Assembly (NCBI GenBank): GCA_026395055.1
Contig: JAPLZK010000002.1
Span: forward strand, 56,940-120,939
From: Candidatus Uhrbacteria bacterium
Lineage (GTDB): Bacteria; Patescibacteriota; Patescibacteriia; UBA9934; GWF2-40-263
Direction of reading: 5' to 3'
Length of the DNA stretch: 64,000 bases
The notes under the pieces were generated by a model. That model had not been told where the DNA came from and made no database searches. It saw only the letters and a program-made list of their open reading frames with translations. Below are positions 1 to 62,271 of the stretch, piece after piece. Position 1 is the first letter of the stretch. Every line of letters begins with the position of its first letter. The translations under genes were made by a program, and so were the position numbers.

Positions 1-33
1 ATCTGGATCCATCATCGAGGTTTCATCATCTTC

Positions 34-816
34 ATGTTCGGCGCGTTCCTTTTTTGCGCCTCAATCGTCCTTTTTTGCACGCACGGCGACAAGGTGCGTA
101 AGGCAGAAGATTACTGTGGTTGCTACGACTACGATCATGCGGAGGTGGAATGGTTTGGTGATGGCGTCACGTGCATCGGCAAGCGGACGTACGAAGAAGA
201 TCGCGCGCCGCTTTTCTGGGGCGGTGGCGATCGTCGTCACTCATTCAAACTCGATCCGAAGATTCGTACATCGCTCGAACAAGCGCGTGAGGATCATCGT
301 CGTGAAGTAAAGGACGCGATGAAGCGGGTAGAGCTCGAGCATATTCTGTGGACGCCGCTGTGGGTAATCATCGACACGAAGCTCGTGAACTGTGTGCCGT
401 CTCGGTTTAACCGCGATGGGACAACCGCCGAGCTCTCGTGTATGCAAGAGATCGACAAGCATATGGACTGCGACAACTTCACACCGGAATTCGAACCAGT
501 TTCGTCGGACTTCGGGTGCGACATGTACTTTCGGGCAAAGGCCTACGCGAGAGCTGGTGGTGTGAAGTTCAATGCGTCGACGGGACATATTGTTCCGACG
601 TTGGAGCAGGAGTTCCGGGAAGACTGTGTCATCCTTGAACTTACGAACAAAGGCATCCCGCTTCGTCGCATGTGCAAAATGACAACCGACAAACAAGAGG
701 GGACCGTGACTTCCTGCTCGGTTCGTCTTGAAGATAACTTCGAAGTGCATGCCGCGTACGACGTCCCATGCATCGACTTCGACAAAGCGCGAAAAGCACA
801 TCCGGCCAAGTCGTAG
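34..816 (+). CDS. hypothetical secreted Cys-rich protein (first gene of the cassette array)
   Basis: 260-aa ORF; N-terminal hydrophobic signal-like segment MFGAFLFCASIVLFCTHG; many Cys; followed by degenerate hairpin/CTTTTCCTGAG module. Confidence 0.4.
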   Translation: MFGAFLFCASIVLFCTHGDKVRKAEDYCGCYDYDHAEVEWFGDGVTCIGKRTYEEDRAPLFWGGGDRRHSFKLDPKIRTSLEQAREDHRREVKDAMKRVELEHILWTPLWVIIDTKLVNCVPSRFNRDGTTAELSCMQEIDKHMDCDNFTPEFEPVSSDFGCDMYFRAKAYARAGGVKFNASTGHIVPTLEQEFREDCVILELTNKGIPLRRMCKMTTDKQEGTVTSCSVRLEDNFEVHAAYDVPCIDFDKARKAHPAKS

Positions 817-941
817 TCAATTCGACAACGTTCCTTTTCAAACTTGTTTGATACGACTCGGAACTCCGAATCGCATCGAACCTTTTCCTGAGCTATCGAT
901 AAGGTATCGAGCTCTCAGGTTGAGATACTTGAATCAAAGAG

Positions 942-1277
942 GTGAACATGGAGTTTATCATCGATACACTCATGAAGATCATGATTGGTGCGTTCGTGAT
1001 TGGAACGTTCACGACGCTCATGTTCTTGTTCAGTTACGGTTCGTTCAAACACAAACTCATTCTAGTCATGATTGTCCTCTACGGGATGTACTTCGAGCAA
1101 TTTCTTTCGATTATGAGTATGACAAGTTGCATTCTCCTTTTTCACCATCTTTCCGAGATCCCACTTCTTGAAAGGAAAATACGCAGATTGCCTGAGCGAG
1201 GAGAAGAGATACCAGGGTTGCCGGAACCGCATCCGCTCGAACTCATCTTTACGGTGGGGGTAGATCGGATCGCGTGA
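942..1277 (+). CDS. hypothetical small membrane protein
   Basis: 111-aa ORF with two or three hydrophobic helices; AGAGGTG SD-like sequence upstream. Confidence 0.35.
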   Translation: MNMEFIIDTLMKIMIGAFVIGTFTTLMFLFSYGSFKHKLILVMIVLYGMYFEQFLSIMSMTSCILLFHHLSEIPLLERKIRRLPERGEEIPGLPEPHPLELIFTVGVDRIA

Positions 1278-1396
1278 GGAATGACCCATTGATTCGTAAA
1301 CGAACTTTTTTCTCGACGAGAAATATTTCTCGTCGCTTTTCCAGAGATCGCAAGCGAGTGCTTGTAGGATCTGAGAAAATTTCAATGGAGGTGTGT

Positions 1397-1897
1397 ATGT
1401 TTCGTAAATTGGTTTTTCTATCCGTGTGTTTTCTTGTTGTGTCATGTCGTCAGGCTGAATTGCCGGTACCCATGGTCAAGCAGAAAAGTTCTGTGAAAGA
1501 AATGCCTCCAAAAGTTTCGGCTGAACAAACGTACTTGTGTGATGAAACTTACACGATCGATTTTGCCAAATCGAAAAGCACAAATGTGAGCGATATGTAT
1601 GCGTGTCAGACTTCGATGGGCACAAGATTGCTTCCGGCTCGATACGGTGCGGCAGAAGTCTTGTTTACGCCAATTGCGCCATCTGGAACTCGATTCACGT
1701 TTCAGATTTTGACTCATGGCACAAATGCTATTGCTGTCATGGTGCACGGCAAACAAACATCGGTTCACGAAAACTTCCTTACCGGATCTTGTGGAGTATT
1801 TTCTACGAGTGGAGGAGTTGTCGGAAGCGATTACGTCGTTCTCGATTCGACGGTAACCACTGATAAGGTGAGCGTTAGGATTACTTGTGCTCTTTAG
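1397..1897 (+). CDS. putative lipoprotein
   Basis: GGAGGTG SD 4 nt before ATG; MFRKLVFLSVCFLVVSC signal with lipobox-like VVSC; stop followed by hairpin + CTTTTCCAGAGA. Confidence 0.4.
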   Translation: MFRKLVFLSVCFLVVSCRQAELPVPMVKQKSSVKEMPPKVSAEQTYLCDETYTIDFAKSKSTNVSDMYACQTSMGTRLLPARYGAAEVLFTPIAPSGTRFTFQILTHGTNAIAVMVHGKQTSVHENFLTGSCGVFSTSGGVVGSDYVVLDSTVTTDKVSVRITCAL

Positions 1898-1992
1898 GCA
1901 TCCGCTTTCTCGGCGATGATTCTCATCGCCGCTTTTCCAGAGACTCCCATCAACAGGTGATGGGGTGATCTGCGAAAGATAAGGAGGAAGAT
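1898..1992 (+). promoter_or_regulatory. cassette-array intergenic module A
   Basis: hairpin GGCGATGATTCTCATCGCC (1912-1930), CTTTTCCAGAGA (1932-1943), hairpin CCCATCA..TGATGGG, GATCTGCGAAAGATAAGGAGG, ATG 1993. Confidence 0.5.
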
Positions 1993-2400
1993 ATGCGAAC
2001 GTTTCGATTGAAGTGGAAGAAGGGCGATGCGGAAACTGTGACGGGTCTGTTTCTCTCGGATGCGTTGAGCAATGCCGGTTACGGTCGAGGCGCGACGGAC
2101 GAACTCGAGACGTATCAACAAGTGATTTATCTCGCCGTCTTCGATCCGAATTCCCGGATCACGCAGATCGAGGAATTTTCGGAAGGGGCTGACAAGAAGA
2201 TGAACTTCGAAGTCATCGTCGGCGCAACACGCGTTGGACGAAGTGTTCAACTCACGTTCGACAATGGCACCGTGAAACGCATCAATGTCGGCGAGCACGG
2301 GCAGTTGATTTCGGGAAACGGATCGGGCGATTGCGTTTGCGCAGCGTTCGATTTGTATCGCGAAGCGGAAGAATGGGAAGAGGAGCAGATGGCGGAGTAG
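1993..2400 (+). CDS. hypothetical protein (cassette gene)
   Basis: 135-aa ORF preceded by AAGGAGG SD inside conserved intergenic module. Confidence 0.45.
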   Translation: MRTFRLKWKKGDAETVTGLFLSDALSNAGYGRGATDELETYQQVIYLAVFDPNSRITQIEEFSEGADKKMNFEVIVGATRVGRSVQLTFDNGTVKRINVGEHGQLISGNGSGDCVCAAFDLYREAEEWEEEQMAE

Positions 2401-2456
2401 TGAGACGCATCTCGGAAATACCAAGGATGTAAATTATCGCCAACAGATAAGGAGAC

Positions 2457-2750
2457 ATGATGCTGATCTTTTCACCAAGATGGTGGCAGAGGCGAAAGGG
2501 GGAGCGAATGCTCGCTCGTATTATGGAAGAAGTGGAAAAGTGCAAGTGCACAAAGAGTTTGATCGAAAGACAACTCGCGTTTGCACGTACGCACGGAATC
2601 GAACAGCAGATCAAGGAATGCGGAGAGATGCTTGCATTTCTGGAAATACAACTGCGCTTCAAACAGTTGGAGTATTTGGTTGTGGTGCAAGAACAGCACG
2701 CGAAAGCAACAAAGGGAATTTCCAGCTTGATAAACGCGAATCTCAAATGA
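2457..2750 (+). CDS. hypothetical protein
   Basis: 97-aa ORF in array; no recognisable domain. Confidence 0.3.
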   Translation: MMLIFSPRWWQRRKGERMLARIMEEVEKCKCTKSLIERQLAFARTHGIEQQIKECGEMLAFLEIQLRFKQLEYLVVVQEQHAKATKGISSLINANLK

Positions 2751-2899
2751 TCGATCTGCCTTGAGAATATCTAAAAATATTTCCCAGGGCCTTTTCCAGA
2801 GATCCCGATCGAAGTGATCGAGCGATCTGAGAAAGCGACCACCCCCTAACCCACTCCTTGTGAAGGATGGGGGAGATGGGTTCATACATAGAGGTGAAC
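2751..2899 (+). promoter_or_regulatory. cassette-array intergenic module B (degenerate)
   Basis: CCTTTTCCAGAGA at 2790-2802 preceded by short CCCAGGG palindrome; second hairpin CCCACTCCTT..AAGGATGGG. Confidence 0.4.
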
Positions 2900-3202
2900 A
2901 TGTTCGATCTGTTCGATCGGTGTTTGATTGCCGGCATCGTGCTTGCGGTTGGGGGGCTCGTCTTTCTGCGCAAGCGCGAACGGTCGGAAGAAATTGCGGA
3001 ACAGAATGCAGAGCCGGTGATCGAAGTGGATCATCGCCCGAGCGCTACCATCATCGAATTTCCGATGCATCGCCGGCCAATGTACGATTCGCTCCCTGGC
3101 TTTGGCTGGGAGGAAGCGGAGGTCATTGATCTTGCGGAGTGGAAATTGCTGCGTCTGCAACGGATGTGGGCTCTGCAAAATTCGCGTGAAGCGATTCTGT
3201 AG
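2900..3202 (+). CDS. hypothetical membrane-anchored protein
   Basis: AGAGGTG SD then ATG; N-terminal TM helix CLIAGIVLAVGGLVFL; terminator hairpin + box downstream. Confidence 0.35.
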   Translation: MFDLFDRCLIAGIVLAVGGLVFLRKRERSEEIAEQNAEPVIEVDHRPSATIIEFPMHRRPMYDSLPGFGWEEAEVIDLAEWKLLRLQRMWALQNSREAIL

Positions 3203-3320
3203 TTTGTTCTTTTTCTCGGCGAGAATCTTCTCGCCCCTTTTCCAGAGAACATGAGCGCTGGGCTTGTGAACTCTGACATAGGTACGAACAGACGTTCGGA
3301 GTTTCCGGACCAGGAGAAAG
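3203..3320 (+). promoter_or_regulatory. cassette-array intergenic module C
   Basis: hairpin GGCGAGAATCTTCTCGCC (3218-3235), CTTTTCCAGAGA 3237-3248. Confidence 0.5.
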
Positions 3321-3644
3321 ATGCGCGACATTTTCTGTACGTTGTTTCTGGTGGTGCTCGCCGCGTTCCTTGTGCTCTCGTCGCACGGACAGCAGTTCAC
3401 GATGACCATCGGTTCGCACACGCTCAGCATGGGCGTCCAGCACTCGACGGCCAAGCTCGAAGCGCGCGTGGCGGAACTCGAAGCGGCGCAAGCGGCACAG
3501 GTGGTCGAAGAAGATGGTGAAGAAGAAGGGGAAGACGTTGTGGGCGAAAATGAAAACGTCTGCGATGTGGAAACCACCTGCTGTGCATCGAGTGAAGTGC
3601 AGATGACTTGCGCGTTCAACGAGGACGCGGAAGAAGAAGGTTAA
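3321..3644 (+). CDS. hypothetical secreted acidic protein
   Basis: signal peptide MRDIFCTLFLVVLAAFLVLSSHG; Glu/Asp-rich C-terminus. Confidence 0.4.
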   Translation: MRDIFCTLFLVVLAAFLVLSSHGQQFTMTIGSHTLSMGVQHSTAKLEARVAELEAAQAAQVVEEDGEEEGEDVVGENENVCDVETTCCASSEVQMTCAFNEDAEEEG

Positions 3645-3689
3645 TCAAAAAACGCCCGCGAGAAATCTCGTCGGCAAGAAGGAGAAAAG

Positions 3690-4022
3690 ATGAATTGGAT
3701 CAAGAAGAATCTGTGTTGGGCTACGTGGATCGCAATGTACGCAGCATTCCTGTTCACTTACATCGTACCGGTTGTCGGCTTTGCTTTGCAGATCATGATT
3801 TGCGTCGCGTGTTTCGCTCTGGAAAAGGTTTGGATCGATCATTCGGTTCAGGATCCACTTTCGTTCTTCCGGCGTTGCCCCATGTTCAGTGCGGCATTCC
3901 CCAGTTTTTTCATCGGGATCGTGGAAGTGAAATTCCACACGCCCGGTCTGCTGACACGCATGCTTTTTTTGCTCTTCTGCCTGTGGGTGGACAAAAAGGC
4001 GTTGAGTCAGAAGGCTGCGTAA
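3690..4022 (+). CDS. hypothetical membrane protein
   Basis: 110 aa, three hydrophobic segments; AGGAGAAAAG SD upstream. Confidence 0.4.
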   Translation: MNWIKKNLCWATWIAMYAAFLFTYIVPVVGFALQIMICVACFALEKVWIDHSVQDPLSFFRRCPMFSAAFPSFFIGIVEVKFHTPGLLTRMLFLLFCLWVDKKALSQKAA

Positions 4023-4120
4023 CGTTCTTTCCTGTTCGAGCACATGCTCGAACCTTTTCCAGAGACTCTCACCGAACGGTTCGGTGGGGTGCTCTGCGGG
4101 AGTACAACAAGGAGAACATT
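4023..4120 (+). promoter_or_regulatory. cassette-array intergenic module D
   Basis: hairpin GTTCGAGCACATGCTCGAAC (4034-4053), CTTTTCCAGAGA 4054-4065, hairpin CACCGAACGGTTCGGTG, GGGGTGCTCTG, AAGGAG. Confidence 0.5.
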
Positions 4121-4465
4121 GTGCGACAAGTGGAACAATCTAATGGTGTTCGTTATTTCGCGTGCGTGCTCGGCGTGCTCGCGACGCTCATTCTCATGGG
4201 TTGCTGCGGTGGCAACAGTGGAAATGCTGCGTCGGCTCCGCTTGCGTACAAGGCGACGTCGTCGTGTTTCACGCCGGCGAATTTCCGGGAGTCCTCGATG
4301 CAGAATACTGATTACAGCCTGGAGCTGTGCGAATATTCCGTTGAGAAGGATGAACACTATGCTCGTACTTGTTTTGCGAGTCGTAACCCGAATTGGCAAA
4401 GTGCCACGACGTTCTCGGTCCCGTGTGCGGACTTTGACGCGATCAAGAAGATCACCGGAAATTAA
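4121..4465 (+). CDS. putative lipoprotein (GTG start)
   Basis: module D supplies AAGGAGAACATT-GTG; N-terminus VRQVEQSNGVRYFACVLGVLATLILMGCCGG has lipobox LMGC. Confidence 0.35.
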   Translation: MRQVEQSNGVRYFACVLGVLATLILMGCCGGNSGNAASAPLAYKATSSCFTPANFRESSMQNTDYSLELCEYSVEKDEHYARTCFASRNPNWQSATTFSVPCADFDAIKKITGN

Positions 4466-4501
4466 ACGCCCGCCCGAGGTTGGGTCGGCACGGAGGTTTG
4501 C

Positions 4502-4843
4502 GTGAAGAATTTTGGAGCGTTCATTGGTGCAATCGGCGGCGCATCCGCGGCGGGTCTTTGGCATCATTTCAATCCGGATACAGGATTTGGTGTGCTCTTG
4601 CTCTGTTCGATGGTCGGCGGCGGCGTCGTGGCGATCATGTGGCTTGCCCTTGTGTATCACCTGAATATTCCACAGGTTCCAAAGCCGAGTCGTGCAGAGT
4701 TGTTCGAAGCAACGCGTGTGGAACTCGAACGTCAGATTGCGGAAGCGACGGAAGCGTGCGGGTCTGAACATGCGGATGCTGTGTACGACTTGCGCAAGGA
4801 GCTCAACGCGTTCAATTACCTGAGCGATCGCCTGAGCTTTTAG
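4502..4843 (+). CDS. hypothetical membrane protein
   Basis: 113 aa, two TM helices; followed by hairpin GCCCGA..TCGGGC + CTTTTCCAGAGA. Confidence 0.4.
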   Translation: MKNFGAFIGAIGGASAAGLWHHFNPDTGFGVLLLCSMVGGGVVAIMWLALVYHLNIPQVPKPSRAELFEATRVELERQIAEATEACGSEHADAVYDLRKELNAFNYLSDRLSF

Positions 4844-4944
4844 TTCTTTTTCTCGCCCGAGTTTCTTCGGGCCTTTTCCAGAGATCCTCACCGAACGGTT
4901 CGGTGGGGTGCTCTGAGGAAGTTTTACAACAGGAGAACATCCGA
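4844..4944 (+). promoter_or_regulatory. cassette-array intergenic module E
   Basis: hairpin GCCCGAGTTTCTTCGGGC (4855-4872), CTTTTCCAGAGA 4873-4884, same CACCGAACGGTTCGGTGGGGTGCTCTG leader as module D. Confidence 0.5.
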
Positions 4945-5526
4945 ATGGATTTCAAGTATACGTTCGACGGTCAGTTGACGGGTTGGAGATGGAAACTCGT
5001 TCTCATCGCGATCTTCGCCATCTTTGTGTACGAGGCGACGGGACAATCTCCTGCGCTTGCGTTCTTGGCGGTCGTGATTCCGGGAGTCATCCTCTTCTCG
5101 CGCATCAGCTTCAAAGCGAAGAGTGATCTGGGTGTGATCGATATCCGTCCGGACACGCCGACGAAATTTCGTTTGCATCTTCCGGAGGAATTGAGCGTAT
5201 CGATTCGGGCATCTGCATTCGTGGAGCCAGATCCGCGTCAAGATCGTATCGACGAACTCGAATCCGAATTGGAGGACGCGGACAGCGAACTCGAAGATGC
5301 GGATTCGGAATGGGAGGATGCAAAAAGCGAACTCGAAGATGCAGAATCGGAAGTGCGAGATGCACAAGATGAACTGCGTCGGGTCGAGGAAGAGCGCGGT
5401 TCACATTTGGTAAATGTTTCCGAATACGCATCGAAGCGTGCGGAAGCGCAGGCAAAGAAAGACAGAATCGAAGCGGAGCTTGCGAAAGCACGCGAGCCGA
5501 ATGCCGAGAATACGACCATCACCTGA
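4945..5526 (+). CDS. hypothetical membrane protein with acidic tandem-repeat coiled coil
   Basis: SD CAGGAGAACATCCGA-ATG; TM helix then repeats ELESELEDADSELEDADSEWEDAKSELEDAESE. Confidence 0.4.
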   Translation: MDFKYTFDGQLTGWRWKLVLIAIFAIFVYEATGQSPALAFLAVVIPGVILFSRISFKAKSDLGVIDIRPDTPTKFRLHLPEELSVSIRASAFVEPDPRQDRIDELESELEDADSELEDADSEWEDAKSELEDAESEVRDAQDELRRVEEERGSHLVNVSEYASKRAEAQAKKDRIEAELAKAREPNAENTTIT

Positions 5527-5592
5527 TCTTGTTGATCGGGAGTGATGTACAACCAGCGTTTCTCAACAATCCCAATCGGGATGGAGGCAGTG

Positions 5593-6081
5593 TTCATGAT
5601 TCCATTGCTCGTTTATCTCGTCGTCACGTTCTTCTTGAACCACATCGTCGCGCAAGTGAATCTGTCTCGCGTGGCGGAGCATCCGGTTCGGAAATCAGGT
5701 TTCTTGCTCGATGTTGCGACGTTCTGTGCGGTTCTTCTGCGCGTGCCGTTCTACCTGTTCGGCATCGTGGTCTACAGCCTGTGCTGTATCGGCACAATCA
5801 TCGCGGCAGCCGCGGATTTCATTCCGGAATACACCATGACACTTTGGATCTACGTGCTTGCCGATAACCTCGGCTACGCGTCCTATGCGTTTCGTGCGCT
5901 TCTCGTGAAGGAATTCCATTTCCTGCAGAGCTTTGCAGCAAGTTCGTGGGCCATCACCTACTACGATTTTCATCTCACCTACGATACACGAGTGTTCTCG
6001 TTTCTCGTGTCGCCGCAAAAGGGATATCGTTCGCACAGTATTGCGCCCGAGCTTGTTGCTCGGCGCAAAATCAACACCTAG
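5593..6081 (+). CDS. hypothetical polytopic membrane protein
   Basis: four or more hydrophobic helices; start uncertain (5542/5593/5608). Confidence 0.35.
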   Translation, partial: FMIPLLVYLVVTFFLNHIVAQVNLSRVAEHPVRKSGFLLDVATFCAVLLRVPFYLFGIVVYSLCCIGTIIAAAADFIPEYTMTLWIYVLADNLGYASYAFRALLVKEFHFLQSFAASSWAITYYDFHLTYDTRVFSFLVSPQKGYRSHSIAPELVARRKINT

Positions 6082-6097
6082 ACATAGGGAGTCTGTC

Positions 6098-6229
6098 ATG
6101 CAAGTGATGTATTTTCTCGGTAACGCAATGAATGTGGTGATCGTCGGTGGTCTCTTGGTTTCCGCCGTCGTCATTCCACGTGATCTACTGCGTGGCGCGT
6201 TCAGTCGCAGCGCGCAGCGCAAAGCGTAA
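6098..6229 (+). CDS. hypothetical small membrane protein (43 aa)
   Basis: AGGGAG SD 7 nt upstream of ATG; single TM helix; 3' end shares AATTCGACAACGTTC with the gene ending at 816. Confidence 0.3.
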   Translation: MQVMYFLGNAMNVVIVGGLLVSAVVIPRDLLRGAFSRSAQRKA

Positions 6230-6330
6230 TTCGACAACGTTCTTTCTCTTGGCGAGAATCTTCTCGCCTCTTTTCCAGAGACTCACATCGATGGATGATG
6301 TGGTGATCTGCGAAAGATAAGGAGGTTCCG
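6230..6330 (+). promoter_or_regulatory. cassette-array intergenic module F
   Basis: hairpin GGCGAGAATCTTCTCGCC (6251-6268), CTTTTCCAGAGA 6270-6281, hairpin CACATCGATGGATGATGTG, GATCTGCGAAAGATAAGGAGG as in module A. Confidence 0.5.
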
Positions 6331-6954
6331 ATGCGGGATTTGGAAGCGATGTATCTTGAACACTTGGCGTTCGTGCGTGCGAATCTTGCGCTGCTCGGCG
6401 TTGAGGATCCGGAAGTGATGATTGCGTTTCGTGTAACGGATCAACGGCATAAACAACCGGACCGAATGATTACGTTCGATCTTTCTCTCTCAGAAGCACT
6501 ACATCACGAAGTGTGTTGTGCATGGCGATCATTTTTCGCCCCGCGATGGCCGGAGGAAACGACTTACAAGCCTGAAGTGCAGATGAATGGGGAATTGTTC
6601 GGGTATCTTGATTCGTCAGGATTCCGTTACAAAGATCCGCCTTCGCTCAGGCTTGCCCTTGCGTGGATGATTGTTGCCAGGTGGGAAAATCCACCGTTTC
6701 TGTTTGATCTTGATAAGGCTGTGAGTGTTCTTGCTGCCGTAGTTGCCGAAGGTGTGACCGAAGAGATCTTTGTGATGAAGTGGCTTCCAGCCCTGAAACA
6801 CGTTTTCGCGTTGCAACCCGGGATGACTGTTCGGGATGGTTATCGATCGTCCGAGGTGTATCTCTGGCGTGTAGCAACAAAAGATGTGTACGGCGAATCA
6901 CACCCTGGGTATCCAGGACGTGTGGAGCCGTGTTATCTGTTGCGTGTTCTTTGA
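6331..6954 (+). CDS. hypothetical protein (cassette gene)
   Basis: 207 aa; same leader (GATCTGCGAAAGATAAGGAGG) as the unrelated gene at 1993. Confidence 0.45.
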   Translation: MRDLEAMYLEHLAFVRANLALLGVEDPEVMIAFRVTDQRHKQPDRMITFDLSLSEALHHEVCCAWRSFFAPRWPEETTYKPEVQMNGELFGYLDSSGFRYKDPPSLRLALAWMIVARWENPPFLFDLDKAVSVLAAVVAEGVTEEIFVMKWLPALKHVFALQPGMTVRDGYRSSEVYLWRVATKDVYGESHPGYPGRVEPCYLLRVL

Positions 6955-7073
6955 AGCGTTTGGCGAGAATCTTCTCGCCTCTTTTCCAGAGACAACAAAC
7001 AGGTTGTGGTCTCTCAGAAGGTTACAGACAGCATCAGTTGCATGCGACCATCCGTCGTTTGCTTGGAGGAAGT
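6955..7073 (+). promoter_or_regulatory. cassette-array intergenic module G
   Basis: hairpin GGCGAGAATCTTCTCGCC (6962-6979), CTTTTCCAGAGA 6981-6992. Confidence 0.5.
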
Positions 7074-7367
7074 ATGGCGTTACCGATCATTGGGTATCTC
7101 GCGCGTTCCGATTGGGAAGATCCCGAGGACAGCGTCGTTGTCGCGATCGAAGATTGCGCGGAACCACAAGTGTTCCGTGTGCTTGCCGCAGAATGGTGTG
7201 CGAAAGAAAACACTGTTCACGTTGTGACCAGGTGGATGCGCGGAAAAGCGCCGATCAAAGTTCGCCTTGGCGAATCCGCCGTTGACTCGATGGCGGAATG
7301 TAGTCTCAAGTTCTGTGCGACGGAAGCTCTGGCCATCGAATGGCTGGGGACACAGTCGCAGTCGTAG
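7074..7367 (+). CDS. hypothetical protein
   Basis: GGAGGAAGT-ATG; 97 aa; followed by GGCGAGAATCTTCTCGCC hairpin + box. Confidence 0.3.
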   Translation: MALPIIGYLARSDWEDPEDSVVVAIEDCAEPQVFRVLAAEWCAKENTVHVVTRWMRGKAPIKVRLGESAVDSMAECSLKFCATEALAIEWLGTQSQS

Positions 7368-7484
7368 GTTGTTTATCGTTCCTTTCTTGGCGAGAATCTT
7401 CTCGCCCCTTTTTCAGAGATCAAGAGTGAATGGCATTTGTGGTTTCTGTCAGAAGTGTTTCGTTGTTTTGTACAGGAGGGAAAG
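7368..7484 (+). promoter_or_regulatory. cassette-array intergenic module H
   Basis: hairpin GGCGAGAATCTTCTCGCC (7389-7406), variant box CTTTTTCAGAGA 7408-7419. Confidence 0.45.
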
Positions 7485-7649
7485 ATGGCACTGTTGGCTT
7501 TCATTGCAGGATGTTTCGCGGGTTCGATCATGTTTGTCGTCGCATGCGGTCTCCTTGGATACCGGATGATGCGCTCGGTCATGAAGGGGCAGAAGCCTCG
7601 TCTCGATCGTCCCGACGTGAAATATACGTTTCCGAACAAAAAGGAATAA
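7485..7649 (+). CDS. hypothetical small membrane protein (54 aa)
   Basis: ACAGGAGGGAAAG-ATG; one TM helix. Confidence 0.3.
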   Translation: MALLAFIAGCFAGSIMFVVACGLLGYRMMRSVMKGQKPRLDRPDVKYTFPNKKE

Positions 7650-7651
7650 TC

Positions 7652-8020
7652 ATGTACGCACGAAATCAAAACGTGGCGGCATGGGTCGCTATCGTAAACG
7701 CAAACGGGTATCAAGAAGTTTGTCCCGTTTCGAAAACGCAAAATGTGTACGCGCAATTCTCTCCGGTGATCCTTCGCTGGAGTCGGGAAGGGGAAATCAT
7801 TCTCGAATTCGTGAACAAGCCGCGAGCGCGACCGTTCGACCCTGACGATGATCGCAAGAATGAAATCGTTCGCGTAAACATCGGCAACGGCGTGATCACG
7901 AAGCGTGACTCGGATTGGAATCCGATTCTGCGGTGTGTTCCATGCGCATCGCATGCGGAAGCAATCATCGAGGCCAAGCGATTGATGGAAGTCATGATGG
8001 ACTATCAGGCGGCGGCGTAA
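7652..8020 (+). CDS. hypothetical protein
   Basis: 122 aa; last gene of array; followed by intrinsic terminator 8032-8063. Confidence 0.35.
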   Translation: MYARNQNVAAWVAIVNANGYQEVCPVSKTQNVYAQFSPVILRWSREGEIILEFVNKPRARPFDPDDDRKNEIVRVNIGNGVITKRDSDWNPILRCVPCASHAEAIIEAKRLMEVMMDYQAAA

Positions 8021-8031
8021 GGTTTTTTCTT

Positions 8032-8063
8032 GACCAGACTCGAATGAGTTTGGTCTTTTTTTT
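8032..8063 (+). terminator. intrinsic terminator ending the cassette array
   Basis: GACCAGACT-cgaatg-AGTTTGGTC followed by T8. Confidence 0.6.
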
Positions 8064-8071
8064 GATGATGG

Positions 8072-8115
8072 GCTCGAAACCTCCCCCAACCCCTCCTTTG
8101 CAGGAGGGGCTTTGG
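8072..8115. repeat. left 44-bp inverted repeat flanking the DUF559 gene
   Basis: GCTCGAAACCTCCCCCAACCCCTCCTTTGCAGGAGGGGCTTTGG; exact reverse complement at 8536-8579; contains internal hairpin CCCCTCCT/AGGAGGGG. Confidence 0.8.
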
Positions 8116-8146
8116 GCGTAGATAAAAACACTCCGCGTGGGAGTGT

Positions 8147-8530
8147 TTAAATGTATTGGGTTGGTCGTGCTGGTTGTATTGCGAGAATTTGTTTGATTCT
8201 GCTAATGACAGAGTTTGTGTTGTTTATTACTTCGTCGTTTGTAAATCGAATCACTTTGATTTCGTATCCTTCAATTATTCGTGACCGTTCCTCGTCATGT
8301 GTTTTTCCTTCACTGGTAAAATGCTGCGAACCATCAAGTTCGATTGCCAATCGTTTTTCGGAGCAATAGAAATCTACAACGAAAGAATCAATACCATGTT
8401 GTCGACGAAACTTAAAGCCTAACTTCTTGTTTTTAAGATGCTCCCATAAATAATTCTCCGCACGCGTCGCTTCGTTACGAAGCACGCGCCTCACATCCTT
8501 TTGATAGAACCGATTAAAAAGTTCATGCAT
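8147..8530 (-). CDS. DUF559 / Vsr-like endonuclease-domain protein
   Basis: motifs LGFKFRRQH, VDFYCSEKRLAIELDGSQH, IKVIRFTNDEV typical of DUF559; start MHELFNRF at 8530 chosen because the longer ORF reads through the inverted repeat. Confidence 0.6.
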   Translation of the reverse strand: MHELFNRFYQKDVRRVLRNEATRAENYLWEHLKNKKLGFKFRRQHGIDSFVVDFYCSEKRLAIELDGSQHFTSEGKTHDEERSRIIEGYEIKVIRFTNDEVINNTNSVISRIKQILAIQPARPTQYI

Positions 8531-8535
8531 AAAGT

Positions 8536-8579
8536 CCAAAGCCCCTCCTGCAAAGGAGGGGTTGGGGGAGGTTTCGAGC
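8536..8579. repeat. right 44-bp inverted repeat flanking the DUF559 gene
   Basis: 44/44 reverse-complement match to 8072-8115. Confidence 0.8.
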
Positions 8580-8594
8580 TTGTCCTCCAAGTCA

Positions 8595-12857: not shown

Positions 12858-13109
12858 TTGACAAGAGGATGCTGCGCTGATAGACTCCTCTCTTCCGCTA
12901 TGGAAGCATTGATTTCTCTGTTCCGCTTAGGATGTTACCTACGTCTACCTTATCGCGACTGACCTGCAGGCACGACAAGCATGGGATTTCAAAAAATGGA
13001 TGCATCAGGTCTCCGGACTCGATCTCTCCATTTGTGAAATTTCTTGCCTGCAGCTTAGTCACGAGAAGTTTTCTGAAAAGATCGTTCACATATGTGCACG
13101 ATCTTTTTT
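12858..13109 (+). ncRNA. candidate small RNA of unknown class
   Basis: sigma70-like promoter TTGACA(12858)-N17-TAGACT(12881), ~215 nt without credible ORF, long-range pairing CCTGCAGGCA/TGCCTGCAG, ends in hairpin GATCGTTCACATATGTGCACGATC + T6 (13080-13109). Confidence 0.3.
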
Positions 13110-13167
13110 GTTATCTTCATCGATCTTACGACGTTTGAAATTTCACGCAAGAGAAACTGTGGATAGA

Positions 13168-15058: not shown

Positions 15059-15457
15059 TTATAAATCGTCTAAATCCAAAATACTGATTGGTTTATCCAT
15101 TTCTGTTTTCTTCAGACGAATGGTGAGCACACCTTTTTTGAGAATGGCGTCTACGGAGTTTGGGTCTACGTGACTTGGAAGAATGATGGATCTGGAAAAC
15201 GCACCCCAGTGACATTCCTGGACATGCGTTTTTCCGCGTTTGAATTCTGAGATTTCATTCGCGCGACTTCCACGAATGGTTAGAGTGTCTTCATGCAATG
15301 TGATGTCCAAATCTTCTGCATTTACCCCCGCGATTGCACTTCTTACCACGATTTCCTTTGCCGTTTCCATAACGTCAACCGAAAGCTGACCTTCGTTTTG
15401 TGAAAACCAAGAACTATCCGTGAAATCGTTTTGAATGTATTCGCGTTGCGGACTCAT
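15059..15457 (-). CDS. Hsp20/alpha-crystallin small heat-shock protein
   Basis: alpha-crystallin core SVDVMETAKEIVVRSAIAGV...GVLTIRLKK; start MSPQREY chosen to avoid overlap with upstream gene. Confidence 0.75.
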   Translation of the reverse strand: MSPQREYIQNDFTDSSWFSQNEGQLSVDVMETAKEIVVRSAIAGVNAEDLDITLHEDTLTIRGSRANEISEFKRGKTHVQECHWGAFSRSIILPSHVDPNSVDAILKKGVLTIRLKKTEMDKPISILDLDDL

Positions 15458-58791: not shown

Positions 58792-59097
58792 TTCTTATCA
58801 TTCGGAAAACCCTTAGACCCTTTGTCCCTCTGACTCTTTGTGAGTTGGAGGGATTTTTTGTATAATCAATTTGCAGTCGTGCGATATTTCATGGTCAAGG
58901 CTGTGGGGTCACGATTGTTTGGAATGGTCATCCAGAATTTTGTCGGCTACGGCTTGCAAAAGTGCGGTGATGATTCTGACAAACAAAAACTTTTCAGTTG
59001 GTGCGATGTGCTTGCGGACTTCTTCGTCCCAAATAAAATTCAGCTAGATTTCTCGTGCACGATAAATCGGCAGTGATCTTGATGGCTCATCGTACAA

Positions 59098-59221
59098 TTC
59101 TTCGTGGCGAACGTGAACGTGAACTCGGATGGCCTGAACGTCAACGTCAACCCGTTCGAGAACGACAATGTCTGGAATGCGGACTGTGTGCATCGTGTCG
59201 TCATCCCGAAACTGACCGTTT
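59098..59221 (+). repeat. DGR template repeat (TR)
   Basis: non-coding copy rich in AAC codons (AACGTGAACGTGAAC...AACGTCAACGTCAAC...AACGACAAT). Confidence 0.65.
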
Positions 59222-59599: not shown

Positions 59600-59623
59600 T
59601 CATAGACATTCAATGGTGAAAAT

Positions 59624-61007: not shown

Positions 61008-61072
61008 TGCTTTCTTTTTGTTTTCTGAGTGCGGGGTGAGGGCACCTCGCCTATTATTTAAATGTTCTTTTT

Positions 61073-61573
61073 ATGTCAAACAGACATTTGTCCCGAACTA
61101 TCGCCATGCAATCCCTGTACCAGTGGGATTTTCTTGGCATGGAAGATGAAAAAATTGAAGATATCATCGCATTCAATCGACAAGAGTTTGCGCCAAAGTT
61201 CGATGATCAAAAATTCGTTGAGAATCTTGTGCATGGAGTTATGGAGAAACGTGATGTGATTGATGAATTCATCACACGCTTTGCTCCAGACTGGCCACTT
61301 GAGTCGCTTACGCTCATCGATCGCAATATTTTGCGTCTTGGAGTGTATGAATTAAAGTTTGCAGATGCGATTCCTGCAAAAGTTGCGATCAACGAAGCGA
61401 TCGAGCTTGCGAAAGGCTTTGGCGGACAATCAAGCGGTCGTTTCGTAAACGGAGTGCTTGGCGCTGTCTATAAAGATATGGTCGCAAAAGGGGAAGTAAA
61501 GAAGGTTGATCAGGAAGTGAAGGAAGAAAAGAAAGAAGAACCTAAAAAATTAGAGGAAGTAATTGCTGAATAA
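61073..61573 (+). CDS. nusB: transcription antitermination factor NusB
   Basis: RHLSRTIAMQSLYQWDF, NusB fold with Lys/Glu-rich C-terminal extension. Confidence 0.8.
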   Translation: MSNRHLSRTIAMQSLYQWDFLGMEDEKIEDIIAFNRQEFAPKFDDQKFVENLVHGVMEKRDVIDEFITRFAPDWPLESLTLIDRNILRLGVYELKFADAIPAKVAINEAIELAKGFGGQSSGRFVNGVLGAVYKDMVAKGEVKKVDQEVKEEKKEEPKKLEEVIAE

Positions 61574-61575
61574 TT

Positions 61576-62271
61576 ATGCCAAAGACAGATCTCGCCGATC
61601 TCGAGCAAACCCTTGGTGTCACGTTTCTGAATAAGGATCTGTTACAACAAGCGCTTGTTCACCGATCCTACTTAAATGAACATCCAGATTTTCGTCTGGG
61701 TCACAACGAACGTCTCGAGTTTCTTGGGGACGCCGTTTTAGAACTTGTTGTCACAGAGCACTTGTACTCACACTTTGAAAATCCAGAAGGAGAACTGACA
61801 AACTGGCGCGCGGCGCTTGTGAATGCAGAAATGCTCGCCGAGCTTTGTAATAAACTTGAGATTGAACCGTACCTGCATCTTTCCCGTGGGGAATCAAAGG
61901 ACACAGGATCAAAAGCACGTAAATATATTCTTGCAAACGCGTTTGAAGCAATCATTGGTGCGATCTACCTCGATCAAGGCTGGGATGGCGCAAAAAAGTT
62001 TATTGATGCGCGTGTCTTGTCCGAACTTGAACGTATTTTGAAGGATCAGCTTTATATTGATCCAAAGAGTCGTTTCCAAGAAGCGGCACAAGAGCATGAA
62101 GGTGTCACACCGTCTTATAAAGTTTTGTCAGAGACCGGGCCGGACCACGCAAAAGAATTTATTGTCGGCGTGTTTATTGGAAAAGAACAAATTGCTTCCG
62201 GAACCGGAATGTCAAAACAAGAAGCACAGGTTGCAGCCGCTCAGGCGGGAATCGAAAAGAAAAAATGGTAA
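61576..62271 (+). CDS. rnc: ribonuclease III
   Basis: ERLEFLGDAVLELVVTEHLY RNase III signature, C-terminal dsRBD. Confidence 0.9.
   Translation: MPKTDLADLEQTLGVTFLNKDLLQQALVHRSYLNEHPDFRLGHNERLEFLGDAVLELVVTEHLYSHFENPEGELTNWRAALVNAEMLAELCNKLEIEPYLHLSRGESKDTGSKARKYILANAFEAIIGAIYLDQGWDGAKKFIDARVLSELERILKDQLYIDPKSRFQEAAQEHEGVTPSYKVLSETGPDHAKEFIVGVFIGKEQIASGTGMSKQEAQVAAAQAGIEKKKW

What the first reader, a model, noticed from the sequence alone, without database searches (positions are those of the whole stretch)
34..8063. Array of ~17 small secreted/membrane-protein genes separated by a conserved bipartite hairpin-CTTTTCCAGAGA-hairpin module
Eight intergenic spacers share one architecture. After the stop codon comes TTCTTT(T)CTC, then GC-rich hairpin 1. 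Its sequence varies but stays self-complementary: GGCGAGAATCTTCTCGCC five times, GGCGATGATTCTCATCGCC, GTTCGAGCACATGCTCGAAC and GCCCGAGTTTCTTCGGGC once each. Then comes the invariant box CTTTTCCAGAGA (CTTTTTCAGAGA once), then hairpin 2 with covarying stems (CACCGAACGGTTCGGTG, CCCATCAACAGGTGATGGG, CACATCGATGGATGATGTG), then GGGGTG(A/C)TCTG...AAGGAG and the start codon. A degenerate ninth copy follows the first gene. Compensatory changes in both stems indicate a conserved RNA or ssDNA structure rather than simple sequence inheritance. Non-homologous genes share identical leaders: modules A/F before 1993 and 6331, and modules D/E before 4121 and 4945. The leader plus spacer therefore behaves as a portable unit, reminiscent of gene cassettes with recombination or regulatory sites. 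Nearly all encoded proteins are small and carry signal peptides, lipoboxes or TM helices, consistent with a variable surface-protein repertoire. Hairpin 1 plus U-tract also looks like an intrinsic terminator, so the box may alternatively mark reinitiation, processing or antitermination.
Basis: seen in the sequence. Interest (0 to 1): 0.7.

Follow-up and report, generated by a model that had tools for sequence, protein, structure and literature searches.

The report
Repeated RNA punctuation module in gene array
A candidate-phylum (Uhrbacteria) chromosome carries a long, fast-changing array of small orphan genes whose units are separated by a conserved three-part RNA signal, which resembles the anti-termination and processing signals of ribosomal RNA operons and is in no RNA family database.

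Summary
Nine full modules and one degenerate module lie between eleven gene units at window 817-7484. All are on the coding strand, and none occurs in the other 56 kb.

- **Element 1:** a boxA-like motif, G[CT]TC[CT]TT, at or just after the stop codon.
- **Element 2:** hairpin 1, which varies in sequence and ends 0-1 nt before the box.
- **Element 3:** the box CTTTTCCAGAGA. It is the 5' strand of a long imperfect stem-loop whose 3' strand is (GA)TCTGNGAAAG and whose apex is the covarying "hairpin 2".

G-U pairs outnumber A-C 90 to 4, so the fold is on the sense strand and is most likely RNA.

The same module punctuates syntenic arrays next to smc in at least seven other Uhrbacteria assemblies; the other boundary, rpsP, is seen in two relatives. 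Gene content and order differ between species but not between strains. No integrase, attC core sites or sigma-70 promoters are present.

The boxA-like motif also sits directly before the SD-less nusB gene in four lineages, and the window encodes NusB and RNase III.

My best reading is a nut/rrn-like punctuation element combining Nus-factor loading, a pause or leaky terminator, and a processing or stabilising stem. It would allow read-through expression of a promoter-poor array. The mechanism is inferred, not shown.

The parts
34..8020 (+). Array of 17 co-directional small genes in 11 units of 1-3 genes each. The array probably continues upstream of the window.
   Evidence: ORF reading and spacer table. 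None of the 17 has a Pfam hit passing the family's curated cut-off, and the first ten have no PHROGs hit. One protein found only itself in 5.8 billion sequences. g15 has only 8 related clusters among 1.84 billion representatives.
817..947 (+). Module 0 (class 2). BoxA-like GTTCCTT at 830-836; long hairpin 1 at 846-881; degenerate box CTTTTCCTGAGC at 882-893; inner hairpin and CTCTCAGG partner up to about 919.
   Evidence: It is too diverged in the core to be found by model R1.
1278..1396 (+). Module 1. Hairpin 1 at 1314-1335; box at 1336-1347; core stem-loop at 1333-1382. No boxA-like motif.
   Evidence: (51.9 bits).
1889..1992 (+). Module 2. BoxA-like TGCTCTTTA at 1888-1896, overlapping the stop codon; hairpin 1 at 1911-1931; box at 1932-1943; core at 1929-1981.
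   Evidence: (67.2 bits).
2751..2899 (+). Module 3. Imperfect hairpin 1 at 2758-2790; box at 2791-2802; core at 2788-2838; a further GC-rich hairpin in the leader. No boxA-like motif.
   Evidence: (57.8 bits).
3203..3320 (+). Module 4. BoxA-like GTTCTTT at 3206-3212; hairpin 1 at 3218-3235; box at 3237-3248; core at 3234-3284.
4023..4120 (+). Module 5. BoxA-like GTTCTTT at 4024-4030; hairpin 1 at 4034-4053; box at 4054-4065; core at 4051-4105.
4843..4944 (+). Module 6. BoxA-like GTTCTTT at 4843-4849, whose G is the last base of the stop codon; hairpin 1 at 4855-4872; box at 4873-4884; core at 4870-4924.
6230..6330 (+). Module 7. BoxA-like GTTCTTT at 6239-6245; hairpin 1 at 6251-6268; box at 6270-6281; core at 6267-6319.
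   Evidence: (68 bits).
6946..7073 (+). Module 8. BoxA-like GTTCTTTGA at 6946-6954, overlapping the stop codon; hairpin 1 at 6962-6979; box at 6981-6992; core at 6978-7024, fully Watson-Crick (AGAGAC/GTCTCT).
7368..7484 (+). Module 9. BoxA-like GTTCCTT at 7378-7384; hairpin 1 at 7389-7406; variant box CTTTTTCAGAGA at 7408-7419; core at 7405-7457.
8032..8063 (+). Canonical intrinsic terminator (10-bp stem plus T8) that closes the array. It contrasts with the 4-U tails inside the modules.
   Evidence: The equivalent strong terminators at the smc-proximal end are seen in L125 and L151.
61064..62271 (+). Candidate trans-acting factors, not part of the array. nusB at 61073-61573 is preceded by the same GTTCTTTTT motif at 61064-61072 in place of a Shine-Dalgarno sequence. 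rnc (RNase III with a dsRBD) is at 61576-62271.
   Evidence: The motif before nusB is conserved in three further lineages.

Best explanation
Each spacer between units is a composite cis-acting RNA element in the transcript of a long, promoter-poor array. Reading 5' to 3':

1. A boxA-like NusB/NusE site (G-Y-U-C-Y-U-U) emerges at or just after the stop codon.
2. Hairpin 1 follows 3-8 nt later and is immediately followed by C-U-U-U-U. This is the architecture of a hairpin pause or a weak intrinsic terminator.
3. The same U-tract plus CAGAGA then becomes the 5' strand of a stem-loop about 15 bp long, the right size for an RNase III-type substrate, which lies at the 5' end of the next unit's leader.

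**Proposed mechanism (inferred).** RNA polymerase starting at the rpsP-proximal end of the array pauses at hairpin 1 plus the U-tract. It is loaded or re-loaded with the Nus complex through boxA and so reads on instead of terminating. The long stem-loop then serves as a processing site or a 5'-protective structure, yielding unit-sized mRNAs bounded by hairpins. This is the logic of rRNA operon leaders and spacers and of phage lambda nut sites, applied to protein-coding units.

A side effect is that roughly 100 bp of shared sequence at every unit boundary gives homologous recombination a place to add, delete and reorder units. This would explain the differences in array content between species.

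**Shown:** the anatomy, the covariation, the strand bias, the distribution, the lack of sigma-70 promoters, the boxA match, and the presence of nusB and rnc.

**Inferred:** Nus binding, pausing or read-through, cleavage, and the recombination mechanism.
For: **Structure**
- Core helix: 93.3% of cells paired against 42-54% slid; 6 of 7 inner pairs have compensatory changes; 0 of 500 shuffles reach the observed covariation.
- The result is reproduced on 19 modules from two genomes not used to build the model: 93.9% paired against 35-55% slid.
- Sense-strand bias: 90 G-U against 4 A-C.
- Whole spacers fold into hairpin 1 plus the core, with z-scores of -2 to -4.9 in 9 of 10 (-1.4 for module 8).

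**Specificity**
- In 223 kb searched, all hits of 34 bits or more lie in the arrays on the coding strand.
- There is no Rfam match.

**Promoter-poor, co-directional arrays**
- Window 1-9000 has 2 sigma-70-like sites against 6.2 expected. The 10-kb array of L151 has 5 against 8 expected.
- Canonical TTGACA-N17-TAnnnT promoters and T5-T8 terminators do occur at housekeeping genes.
- The module tails have only 4 U. Only 3 of 10 window modules pass a standard terminator scan, whereas the arrays seen in the window, L125 and L151 end in a T8-type terminator.

**BoxA**
- G[CT]TC[CT]TT lies 10-17 nt before hairpin 1 in 25 of 49 modules, against 0.55 expected. Composition-matched permutations occur 0-1 times.
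- It agrees with the published boxA core (E. coli UGCUCUUUA and Aquifex GGCUCCUUG, critical G2, C5 and U/C6, PMC3177189; consensus GYTCTTTAANA, PMC5725501).
- The same motif lies 0-20 nt before the SD-less nusB start in four Uhrbacteria lineages whose flanking sequence has diverged. This fits the known autoregulation of Nus factors through boxA (PMC5725501).
- NusB and RNase III are encoded in the window.

**Unit dynamics**
- Shared gene families occur in a different order in the window, L145, L148, L149 and L125.
- Homology between L148 and L149 ends at the junction of hairpin 1 and the box.
- Hairpin-2 sequences are more alike within a genome than between genomes: 0.67 against 0.60, permutation p < 0.0005.
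Against: - There are no transcript data. Read-through, pausing, Nus binding and cleavage are all inferred.
- The boxA-like motif is only 7 nt long and is absent or degenerate in about half of the modules, including window modules 1 and 3.
- The lineage's rRNA-leader boxA could not be examined, because no rRNA locus was available.
- Nus complexes are best known for countering Rho, not intrinsic terminators, and I did not check whether Uhrbacteria have Rho.
- The core has about 15 bp interrupted by loops, which is shorter than classic RNase III substrates.
- The strict sequence conservation of CCAGAGA goes beyond what pairing needs and remains unexplained. An unknown sequence-specific factor, or an unconventional promoter or initiation signal, is not excluded.
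- In L125 and L142 one degenerate module is preceded by a canonical TTGACG-N17-TAGAAT promoter, so at least some units have their own promoter.
Confidence: 0.45

Rival explanations
1. Plain terminator plus leader. Hairpin 1 with the U-tract terminates each unit. The next unit is transcribed from its own promoter hidden in the module and recognised by a non-sigma-70-type sigma factor, or by a promoter consensus specific to this lineage. The core stem-loop is then the 5'-terminal stabilising hairpin of a monocistronic mRNA, and the box owes its sequence conservation to promoter or start-site function.
For: - The hairpin followed by CUUUU sits 7-37 nt after stop codons.
- The box is conserved in sequence rather than only in pairing: the outer helix shows no double changes.
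- One module in L125 and L142 has a canonical promoter directly upstream, so promoters can be placed there.
- A 5' end at the box would be fully base-paired.
Against: - No pair of conserved elements has promoter-like spacing. The distance from the box to TCTG varies from 19 to 27 nt, and the distance from GTTC to the box differs between hairpin classes.
- Sigma-70-like sites are depleted in the arrays.
- The sequence 5' of the box is a covarying hairpin, which is not compatible with a fixed -35 or -10 element.
- The U-tract has only 4 U.
Confidence: 0.2
2. The modules are mainly recombination modules, comparable to the PeSL elements of T4-type phages. On this reading their main biological role is to provide about 100 bp of homology at each unit boundary, so that orphan-gene units can be shuffled, duplicated, deleted or exchanged. 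Their regulatory parts simply travel with them.
For: - Species-level differences in unit order and content, with breakpoints at the junction of hairpin 1 and the box.
- Tandem duplicated units, for example in L139/L149 and at L145 15161/15724.
- Within-genome homogenisation of hairpin 2.
- Published precedent for composite regulatory motifs that mediate shuffling of ORFans (PMC2839356, PMC4122927).
Against: - Recombination does not explain the compensatory base changes, the sense-strand G-U bias, the fixed order and spacing of three elements, or conservation across genomes down to 78% SMC identity.
- Arrays are identical among strains from different samples, so turnover is slow.
- This reading is compatible with the best explanation rather than an alternative to it.
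Confidence: 0.15
3. Integron-like gene cassettes. On this reading the hairpin-box-hairpin is an attC-type single-stranded DNA recombination site used by a site-specific recombinase encoded elsewhere.
For: - Co-directional small orphan genes, each followed by an imperfect palindrome with conserved outer arms and a variable self-complementary centre.
- Array content varies between species.
Against: - The complete array in L145 is bounded by rpsP and smc, with no integrase-family Pfam hit in the locus. No recombinase was found among the scanned ORFs of the 64-kb window.
- The attC core sites RYYYAAC...GTTRRRY are absent. The class-2 hairpin reads GTTCGAC...GTCGAAC, which is the opposite arrangement.
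- 90 G-U against 4 A-C pairs is not expected for a DNA hairpin, where G-T is destabilising.
- Strains have identical arrays.
- The locus sits at a fixed chromosomal position across the clade.
Confidence: 0.05
4. A selfish small repeat of the REP/BIME or MITE type that happened to accumulate in this region.
For: - The elements are short, palindromic, repeated and intergenic.
- Hairpin 1 is flanked by similar pyrimidine-rich sequences on both sides.
Against: - All copies have one orientation relative to the genes. They occur only at unit boundaries of one locus, with none in 56 kb of the window or in the flanks on the smc side.
- Structure is maintained by covariation across genomes.
- No associated transposase was found.
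Confidence: 0.05

Closest known systems
Nus-factor antitermination signals: phage lambda nut sites (boxA-spacer-boxB hairpin) and rRNA operon leader or spacer boxB-boxA-boxC, with flanking RNase III processing stems
   Same: - A short conserved G-Y-U-C-U-U-U motif lies next to a stem-loop whose sequence is free but whose structure is kept.
- The signal is located in untranslated stretches of a long transcription unit.
- It is combined with long processing-type helices.
- NusB and RNase III genes are present in the genome, and the same motif precedes nusB, fitting known boxA autoregulation (PMC5725501).
   Different: - The signal is repeated about 10-20 times inside a protein-coding array rather than once or twice per operon.
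- The hairpin is followed by a U-tract.
- There is an extra invariant CCAGAGA box with no counterpart in nut or rrn signals.
- No N-like protein is known, and binding is untested.
PeSL (promoter-early stem-loop) cassettes of T4-type phages (PMC2839356, PMC4122927)
   Same: - Composite regulatory motifs of about 100 bp lie between small ORFan genes in a hyperplastic region.
- They include a stem-loop terminator or attenuator and end at the SD of the next gene.
- They are associated with shuffling of the flanked genes by recombination between motifs.
   Different: - PeSLs contain a consensus sigma-70 promoter, and these modules do not.
- PeSLs have no covarying second stem-loop, no boxA-like motif and no invariant 12-mer.
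- This host is a bacterial chromosome at a fixed locus, not a phage.
Integron attC sites and cassette arrays
   Same: - Co-directional, mostly promoterless small orphan genes.
- A structured site with conserved ends and a variable paired centre at each boundary.
- Array content differs between related genomes, and site sequences are more alike within a genome.
   Different: - No integrase and no R''/R' core sites.
- The structure is selected on the sense strand with many G-U pairs, which points to RNA.
- No strain-level variation was seen.
Intercistronic RNase III sites of the phage T7 early region, and intercistronic stabiliser hairpins of bacterial operons (from my own knowledge)
   Same: - Structured elements lie between small genes of one long transcript.
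- Each is an imperfect helix with internal loops.
- They are expected to give unit mRNAs bounded by hairpins.
   Different: Cleavage is not shown here. The helix is shorter, and it is coupled to a boxA-like motif and a terminator-like hairpin.

Membership tests
Integron (attC cassette array) | IntI-type tyrosine recombinase with attI and Pc at the head of the array | tested here: not met
   The complete array in L145 runs from rpsP to smc, with no recombinase-family Pfam hit on any called gene in the locus. No integrase or recombinase domain was found in the scanned ORFs of 150 aa or more in the 64-kb window; six such ORFs were not scanned.
Integron (attC cassette array) | attC with inverse core RYYYAAC and core GTTRRRY at its ends, folding as bottom-strand ssDNA | tested here: not met
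   The module ends are CTTTTCCAGAGA and TCTGNGAAAG. The class-2 hairpin reads GTTCGAC...GTCGAAC, which is the reverse arrangement. G-U 90 against A-C 4 favours sense-strand RNA.
Integron (attC cassette array) | Cassette content varies between related genomes | tested here: met
   Different order and content at 91-95% SMC identity. Arrays are identical within strains.
Nus-factor boxA / nut-like antitermination site | BoxA sequence (G2, C5 and U/C6 critical; gamma-proteobacterial consensus GYTCTTTAANA) | tested here: met
   G[CT]TC[CT]TT is present in 25 of 49 modules (8 of 10 in the window) against 0.55 expected. Several extend to GTTCTTTCACAAC or TGCTCTTTA. Literature values are from PMC3177189 and PMC5725501. 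About half of the modules lack a clean match.
Nus-factor boxA / nut-like antitermination site | The same motif is used at the lineage's accepted Nus targets (rRNA leaders, Nus-factor genes) | tested here: inconclusive
   The motif is conserved 0-20 nt before the SD-less nusB start in four lineages. No rRNA leader was available to check.
Nus-factor boxA / nut-like antitermination site | NusB/NusE bind the RNA and make RNA polymerase termination-resistant | not testable with these tools
   nusB is present at 61073-61573. Binding and read-through need experiments.
Intrinsic (Rho-independent) terminator | GC-rich stem-loop immediately followed by a U-tract of about 5-8 U | tested here: inconclusive
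   A stem ending 0-1 nt before the tail is present in 36 of 36 modules. The tail is C-U-U-U-U-C-C, and only 3 of 10 window modules pass the scan. Housekeeping terminators in the same window have T5-T8.
RNase III processing site | Roughly two turns of dsRNA, often with internal loops; RNase III present | tested here: inconclusive
   The core has 15 pairs in three segments plus a 3x3 loop and a bulge. rnc with a dsRBD is encoded at 61576-62271. Cleavage is untested.
PeSL regulatory cassette (T4-type phages) | Consensus sigma-70 early promoter plus stem-loop, flanking ORFans in hyperplastic regions of a phage | tested here: not met
   Stem-loop, ORFan association and shuffling are met. The promoter is not met. 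There is no similarity to phage records or viral contigs and no PHROGs hit for the ten array proteins tested.
REP/BIME or MITE-type dispersed repeat | Many copies dispersed through the genome, in either orientation | tested here: not met
   The covariance model finds copies only in the arrays and only on the coding strand, in 223 kb plus 45 kb searched. The whole genome was not available.
Any curated RNA family (Rfam 15) | Match at gathering score or a suggestive E-value | tested here: not met
   The window has only 3 tRNAs at gathering score. Nothing relevant appears at E <= 5 in 1-8200 or at E <= 1 in the L145 array.

The most novel reading that the evidence does not exclude
A clade of Uhrbacteria keeps a dedicated plug-and-play expression locus next to smc (bounded by rpsP on the other side in the two relatives where that end was seen). 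Orphan genes for small membrane and secreted proteins are held there as units. Each unit ends in a self-contained nut-like module comprising a NusB/E boxA, a pause hairpin and a processing stem with an invariant CCAGAGA box.

On this reading the module makes any inserted gene expressible from one distal promoter by serial re-loading of an antitermination complex. It also supplies the homology that lets units be shuffled. That would be a recombinase-free functional analogue of an integron built on rRNA-operon transcription logic. The invariant box would be read by a still unknown factor.
Probability: 0.25. Interest if true: 0.8.

Novelty: new variant of a known kind. Interest (0 to 1): 0.62.

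Why it matters
Candidate Phyla Radiation bacteria are largely uncultured, and almost nothing is known about how they control transcription. This locus offers a concrete, testable cis-element with more than 55 copies in at least 8 assemblies, clear covariation and no Rfam entry.

If the Nus-factor reading is right, it would have three consequences:
- It would extend boxA-dependent control from rRNA, CRISPR arrays and a few leaders to a repeated punctuation system inside a protein-coding array.
- It would define the boxA of a CPR lineage.
- It would explain how a 10-kb array with no visible promoters can be expressed.

The locus is also a natural marker for a hypervariable set of surface-protein genes that may matter for the episymbiotic lifestyle of these organisms. 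It may be a second example, after phage PeSLs, of regulatory repeats that double as substrates for gene shuffling.

Tried and rejected
**Promoters**
- Sigma-70 promoters inside the modules: the scan found none beyond chance.
- By eye, sigma-54 (GG-N10-GC) and ECF-type (GAAC-N16-TCTGA or CGTC) spacings do not fit, because the candidate elements lie in covarying or variably spaced parts.

**RNA pairing and motifs**
- Anti-Shine-Dalgarno role for the pyrimidine tract 5' of hairpin 1. This was suggested by MFE folds that pair it with the downstream SD. Cognate duplex energy (-8.2 kcal/mol) is no better than non-cognate (-8.3), shuffled (-8.6) or random genomic 24-mers (-8.5), with permutation p = 0.58. 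Rejected.
- K-turn or tandem G-A motif in the 3x3 internal loop. The GA/GA arrangement is replaced by Watson-Crick pairs in several modules (AGATT/GGAATCT, AGAGAC/GTCTCT), so it is not a conserved non-canonical motif.
- A trans-acting 'anti-box' in the conserved ncRNA candidate next to clpP. The similarity is the A-tract of that RNA's own terminator. Rejected.

**Recombination, phage or plasmid origin**
- Integron attC core sites: absent.
- Phage origin: no specific hit for the module in IMG/VR, no blastn hit to 50,697 phage records, and no PHROGs hit for the ten array proteins tested. I did not search the plasmid collection.

**Searches that gave little**
- Exact-protein look-ups for the window's source contig gave only 2-4 kb Logan contigs or nothing, so the sequence upstream of the window could not be recovered.
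- The loose pattern CTTTTCCAGAGA-N19-27-TCTG is swamped by chance hits in large collections.
- Five of the six genome hits and 13 of the 16 metagenome hits to the tighter patterns were single chance matches.
- Protein homology for the array proteins reaches almost nothing.

Full report
**1. What is there**

Window 34-8020 holds 17 co-directional genes of 43-260 codons. Six junctions are short (2-69 nt) and have no repeat. Ten junctions (95-149 nt) carry the repeat, so the array consists of eleven units of 1-3 genes.

The 12-mer CTTTTCCAGAGA occurs exactly nine times if the one-mismatch copy at 7408 is counted. All copies are on the + strand between 1336 and 7419, with a degenerate copy at 882. 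No copy with 0 or 1 mismatch occurs on the + strand in the other 56 kb.

The last gene is followed by a canonical terminator with a 10-bp stem and T8. Next come a DUF559 gene and, convergent with the array, smc. After that come DHH/DHHA1, clpP, vanW, hsp20 and other housekeeping genes.

The one array protein with a database record is annotated as Candidatus Uhrbacteria. None of the 17 proteins has a Pfam hit passing its family's cut-off, and the ten tested have no PHROGs hit. By hydropathy, 12 of 17 have a hydrophobic N-terminus, TM segments or a lipobox. The first gene has no in-frame stop before position 34, so the array very probably continues upstream of the window.

**2. Anatomy of the module**

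Aligning the modules shows three conserved parts rather than two hairpins around a free box.

- **BoxA-like motif.** G[CT]TC[CT]TT lies 10-17 nt before hairpin 1, at or just after the stop codon. It is present in 8 of 10 window modules and in 25 of 49 modules overall. Chance would give 0.55, and permuted motifs of the same composition occur 0-1 times.
- **Hairpin 1.** It ends 0-1 nt before the box in 36 of 36 modules. It comes in two classes. One is a short GC-rich hairpin of 6-9 bp. The other is a long hairpin of 14-17 bp of the type GTTCGAC...TTCGGAAnTTCCGAA...GTCGAAC. The window's first module is of the second class.
- **Box and core helix.** RNAalifold and my explicit pair count show that CUUUU pairs with GAAAG and AGA pairs with UCU.

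On 36 modules from seven assemblies, 93.3% of cells are paired, against 42-54% when the 3' partners are slid. Six of seven inner pairs show changes on both sides. Sixty cells have double changes, against 20.6 +/- 3.4 in shuffles, with 0 of 500 shuffles as high.

The outer helix never shows double changes. It shows only U-A to U-G or C-G to U-G changes in the 3' strand. The box itself is therefore under sequence constraint beyond pairing.

Across the core, 90 cells are G-U and 4 are A-C. A structure selected on the opposite strand would show the reverse pattern, and a DNA hairpin would not be expected to tolerate 17% G-T. The fold is therefore on the sense strand and is most likely RNA.

Whole spacers fold into hairpin 1 plus the core helix, with z-scores from -2.0 to -4.9 in nine of ten cases (-1.4 for module 8).

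**3. Distribution**

Rfam has no match, either at gathering score or at permissive E-values. The module pattern is absent from IMG/VR. The array has no blastn match in 50,697 phage records.

One genome-collection scan and one metagenome scan with module patterns found an Uhrbacteria MAG (L125) and three metagenome contigs (L131, L139, L142) carrying several modules each. All other hits were single chance matches.

L125 proved syntenic: a small-gene array, then a terminator, then smc and the DHH gene. I therefore used SMC as an anchor and fetched the neighbourhood in relatives with 95, 91, 91, 79, 78 and 69% SMC identity. In every case an uninterrupted co-directional array of small unannotated genes converges on smc.

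In L145 (GCA_001791305.1) and in the 69% relative, the other boundary is rpsP. The complete L145 array is thus seen to have no recombinase-family Pfam hit at either end.

A covariance model of the core (R1) gave hits of 34 bits or more only in the arrays and only on the coding strand, in 223 kb searched. This includes 9 in the window and none in the 10-kb flanks on the smc side. It found 11 and 8 further modules in the two more distant genomes, which were not used to build it. These again fit the structure, with 93.9% paired against 35-55% slid. That alignment is model-fitted, so it leans towards the structure.

**4. Dynamics**

Several gene families are shared between arrays but in a different order. 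With g9 the lipoprotein, g12 the multi-TM protein and g15 a soluble 97-aa protein, the order is as follows:

| Locus | Order |
|---|---|
| Window | g9 < g12 < g15 |
| L148 | g12 < g15 < g9 |
| L149 | g15 < g9 |
| L145 | g9 < g12 |

Between L148 and L149, homology of a shared unit stops at the end of hairpin 1 and the start of the box. The leader from the box onwards travels with the downstream gene. L148 has an extra unit inserted exactly there.

Hairpin-2 sequences are somewhat more alike within a genome than between genomes: 0.67 against 0.60, permutation p < 0.0005. Some hairpin-2 types are nevertheless shared across genomes.

Contigs of the same strain from different samples have identical arrays: L145 = L146 = L147 and L151 = L152, at 99.9% or more. 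Units therefore move on the time scale of species, not strains.

**5. Promoters and terminators**

A consensus scan finds 2 sigma-70-like sites in window 1-9000 against 6.2 expected. It finds 5 against 8 expected in the 10-kb array of L151. The same genome has textbook TTGACA-N16/17-TAnnnT promoters and T5-T8 terminators at housekeeping genes.

No two conserved elements of the module keep a promoter-like spacing. Only 3 of 10 window modules pass the terminator scan, because the tail is C-U-U-U-U-C-C.

A canonical promoter is seen in two places. One is at the rpsP-proximal head of the L145 array. The other is directly upstream of one degenerate module in L125 and L142.

The simplest reading is that the arrays are mainly read through from a few promoters, and that hairpin 1 plus U4 is a pause or a leaky terminator.

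**6. The boxA lead**

The 5' motif matches the published core of boxA, the NusB/NusE binding site. E. coli has UGCUCUUUA and Aquifex has GGCUCCUUG. G2, C5 and U/C6 are critical, and C6U is tolerated (PMC3177189). The gamma-proteobacterial consensus is GYTCTTTAANA (PMC5725501).

Individual copies read TGCTCTTTA (window 1888), GTTCTTTGA (6946), GTTCTTTCACAAC (L125) and GTTCTTTTCACAAC (L145).

The window encodes nusB and, next to it, RNase III with a dsRBD. nusB has no Shine-Dalgarno sequence. Instead, GTTCTTTTT ends immediately before its ATG.

I fetched nusB from three further lineages with 95, 81 and 74% NusB identity. All have one or two G[CT]TC[CT]TT motifs within 0-30 nt of the start, while the rest of the spacer has diverged. 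One example is GTTCTTTAAGTTCTTTCACGT-ATG.

Autoregulation of Nus-factor genes through an upstream boxA is documented and widespread (PMC5725501). This is independent, though indirect, support that GYUCYUU is the NusB/E site of this lineage. The rRNA leader, which would be the proper reference (PMC7665894), was not available.

**7. Mechanism proposed**

Order and spacing (boxA, 3-8 nt, stem-loop) are those of a lambda nut site. The combination with long processing-type helices recalls rRNA operon leaders and spacers. I propose three steps:

1. The boxA emerging after each stop codon loads or re-loads the Nus complex.
2. Hairpin 1 plus U4 acts as a pause or weak terminator, which the modified polymerase passes.
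3. The core helix, which re-uses the U-tract as its 5' strand and stacks directly on hairpin 1, is an RNase III-type processing site or a 5'-protective structure for the next unit.

All of this is inference. The invariant CCAGAGA is not explained by pairing alone and may be read by an unknown factor.

The shared 100 bp at each boundary would also make unequal homologous recombination easy. This has been shown for the promoter-terminator PeSL motifs that flank ORFans in T4-type phages (PMC2839356, PMC4122927). It would account for the observed shuffling without a dedicated recombinase.

**8. Rivals**

- **Hidden lineage-specific promoter in each module.** Not excluded. It is disfavoured by the lack of fixed spacing and by the covarying sequence where a -35 or -10 element would lie.
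- **Integron-like system.** Contradicted by the absence of an integrase and of core sites, by the strand and G-U evidence, and by strain-level stability.
- **REP/MITE-type repeat.** Contradicted by the single orientation and single locus.
- **Anti-SD role for the pyrimidine tract.** Tested and rejected.

**9. Verdict**

The element is a lineage-specific, uncatalogued, three-part RNA punctuation module of a hypervariable small-protein array at a conserved chromosomal position in Uhrbacteria.

It is best described as a new variant of known kinds (nut/rrn-type antitermination signals, intercistronic processing hairpins, PeSL-like regulatory repeats), not a member of any of them. Confidence in the anatomy is high. 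Confidence in the mechanism is moderate to low (about 0.45) until transcript ends and Nus binding are measured.

Noticed in passing
window 58132-60634: A diversity-generating retroelement. The reverse transcriptase (RVT_1) is at 59624-60634. A 124-nt template repeat is at 59098-59221 and the variable repeat at 58666-58789, at the 3' end of ORF 58132-58791. 15 of 16 mismatches are at template adenines.
   Followed up: partly
window 61064-61072, and L155-L162 upstream of nusB: nusB lacks a Shine-Dalgarno sequence and is directly preceded by a boxA-like G[CT]TC[CT]TT motif in four Uhrbacteria lineages. This suggests NusB autoregulation. The gene order rpmF-nusB-rnc is conserved.
   Followed up: yes
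window ~12858-13110 (+); homologous stretch next to clpP read in L125, partly in L145: A candidate non-coding RNA of about 220-250 nt, with a perfect TTGACA-N17-TAGACT promoter (with an extended -10 TG) and its own terminator. It is conserved next to clpP and has no Rfam or ARAGORN hit.
   Followed up: partly
window 8070-8623: A DUF559 endonuclease-like gene (8147-8623, minus strand) lies between the array terminator and smc, flanked by inverted GC-rich repeats (CCCCAACCCCTCCTTTGCAGGAGGGGC). It is absent at this spot in L125 and L145. L153 has one at the same spot on the other strand, which looks like a small mobile insertion.
   Followed up: partly
L151 (e.g. 15301-15328, 13240-13280), L153 (~19640, 20590), L145 (~17190): A small GC-rich palindrome, GGGGTCCCCnGACCCC, recurs in the leaders downstream of several modules in related genomes. 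It is a second, independent short repeat of unknown role.
   Followed up: no
window 33518-37939 (minus strand): Four tandem ORFs of 327-372 codons. The two with a Pfam hit (33518-34534 and 36821-37939) show weak WD40/beta-propeller-like matches; one (34630-35646) had no hit and one (35742-36725) was not scanned. They lie next to a 917-aa AAA ATPase and a tRNA-Glu gene.
   Followed up: no
L145 19250-19500 (minus strand), head of the complete array: A canonical TTGACA...TATATT promoter is followed by a leader of about 170 nt that has a terminator-like hairpin before the first array gene. It has no Rfam hit and may be the regulated entry point of the array.
   Followed up: partly
window 7074-7367 (g15) and proteins P0123, P0125: Residues 20-60 of the 97-aa array protein g15 match 8-9 repeated stretches in two large proteins (816 and 1623 aa) in the representative library. 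The small array protein may therefore be a single copy of a repeat module.
   Followed up: no
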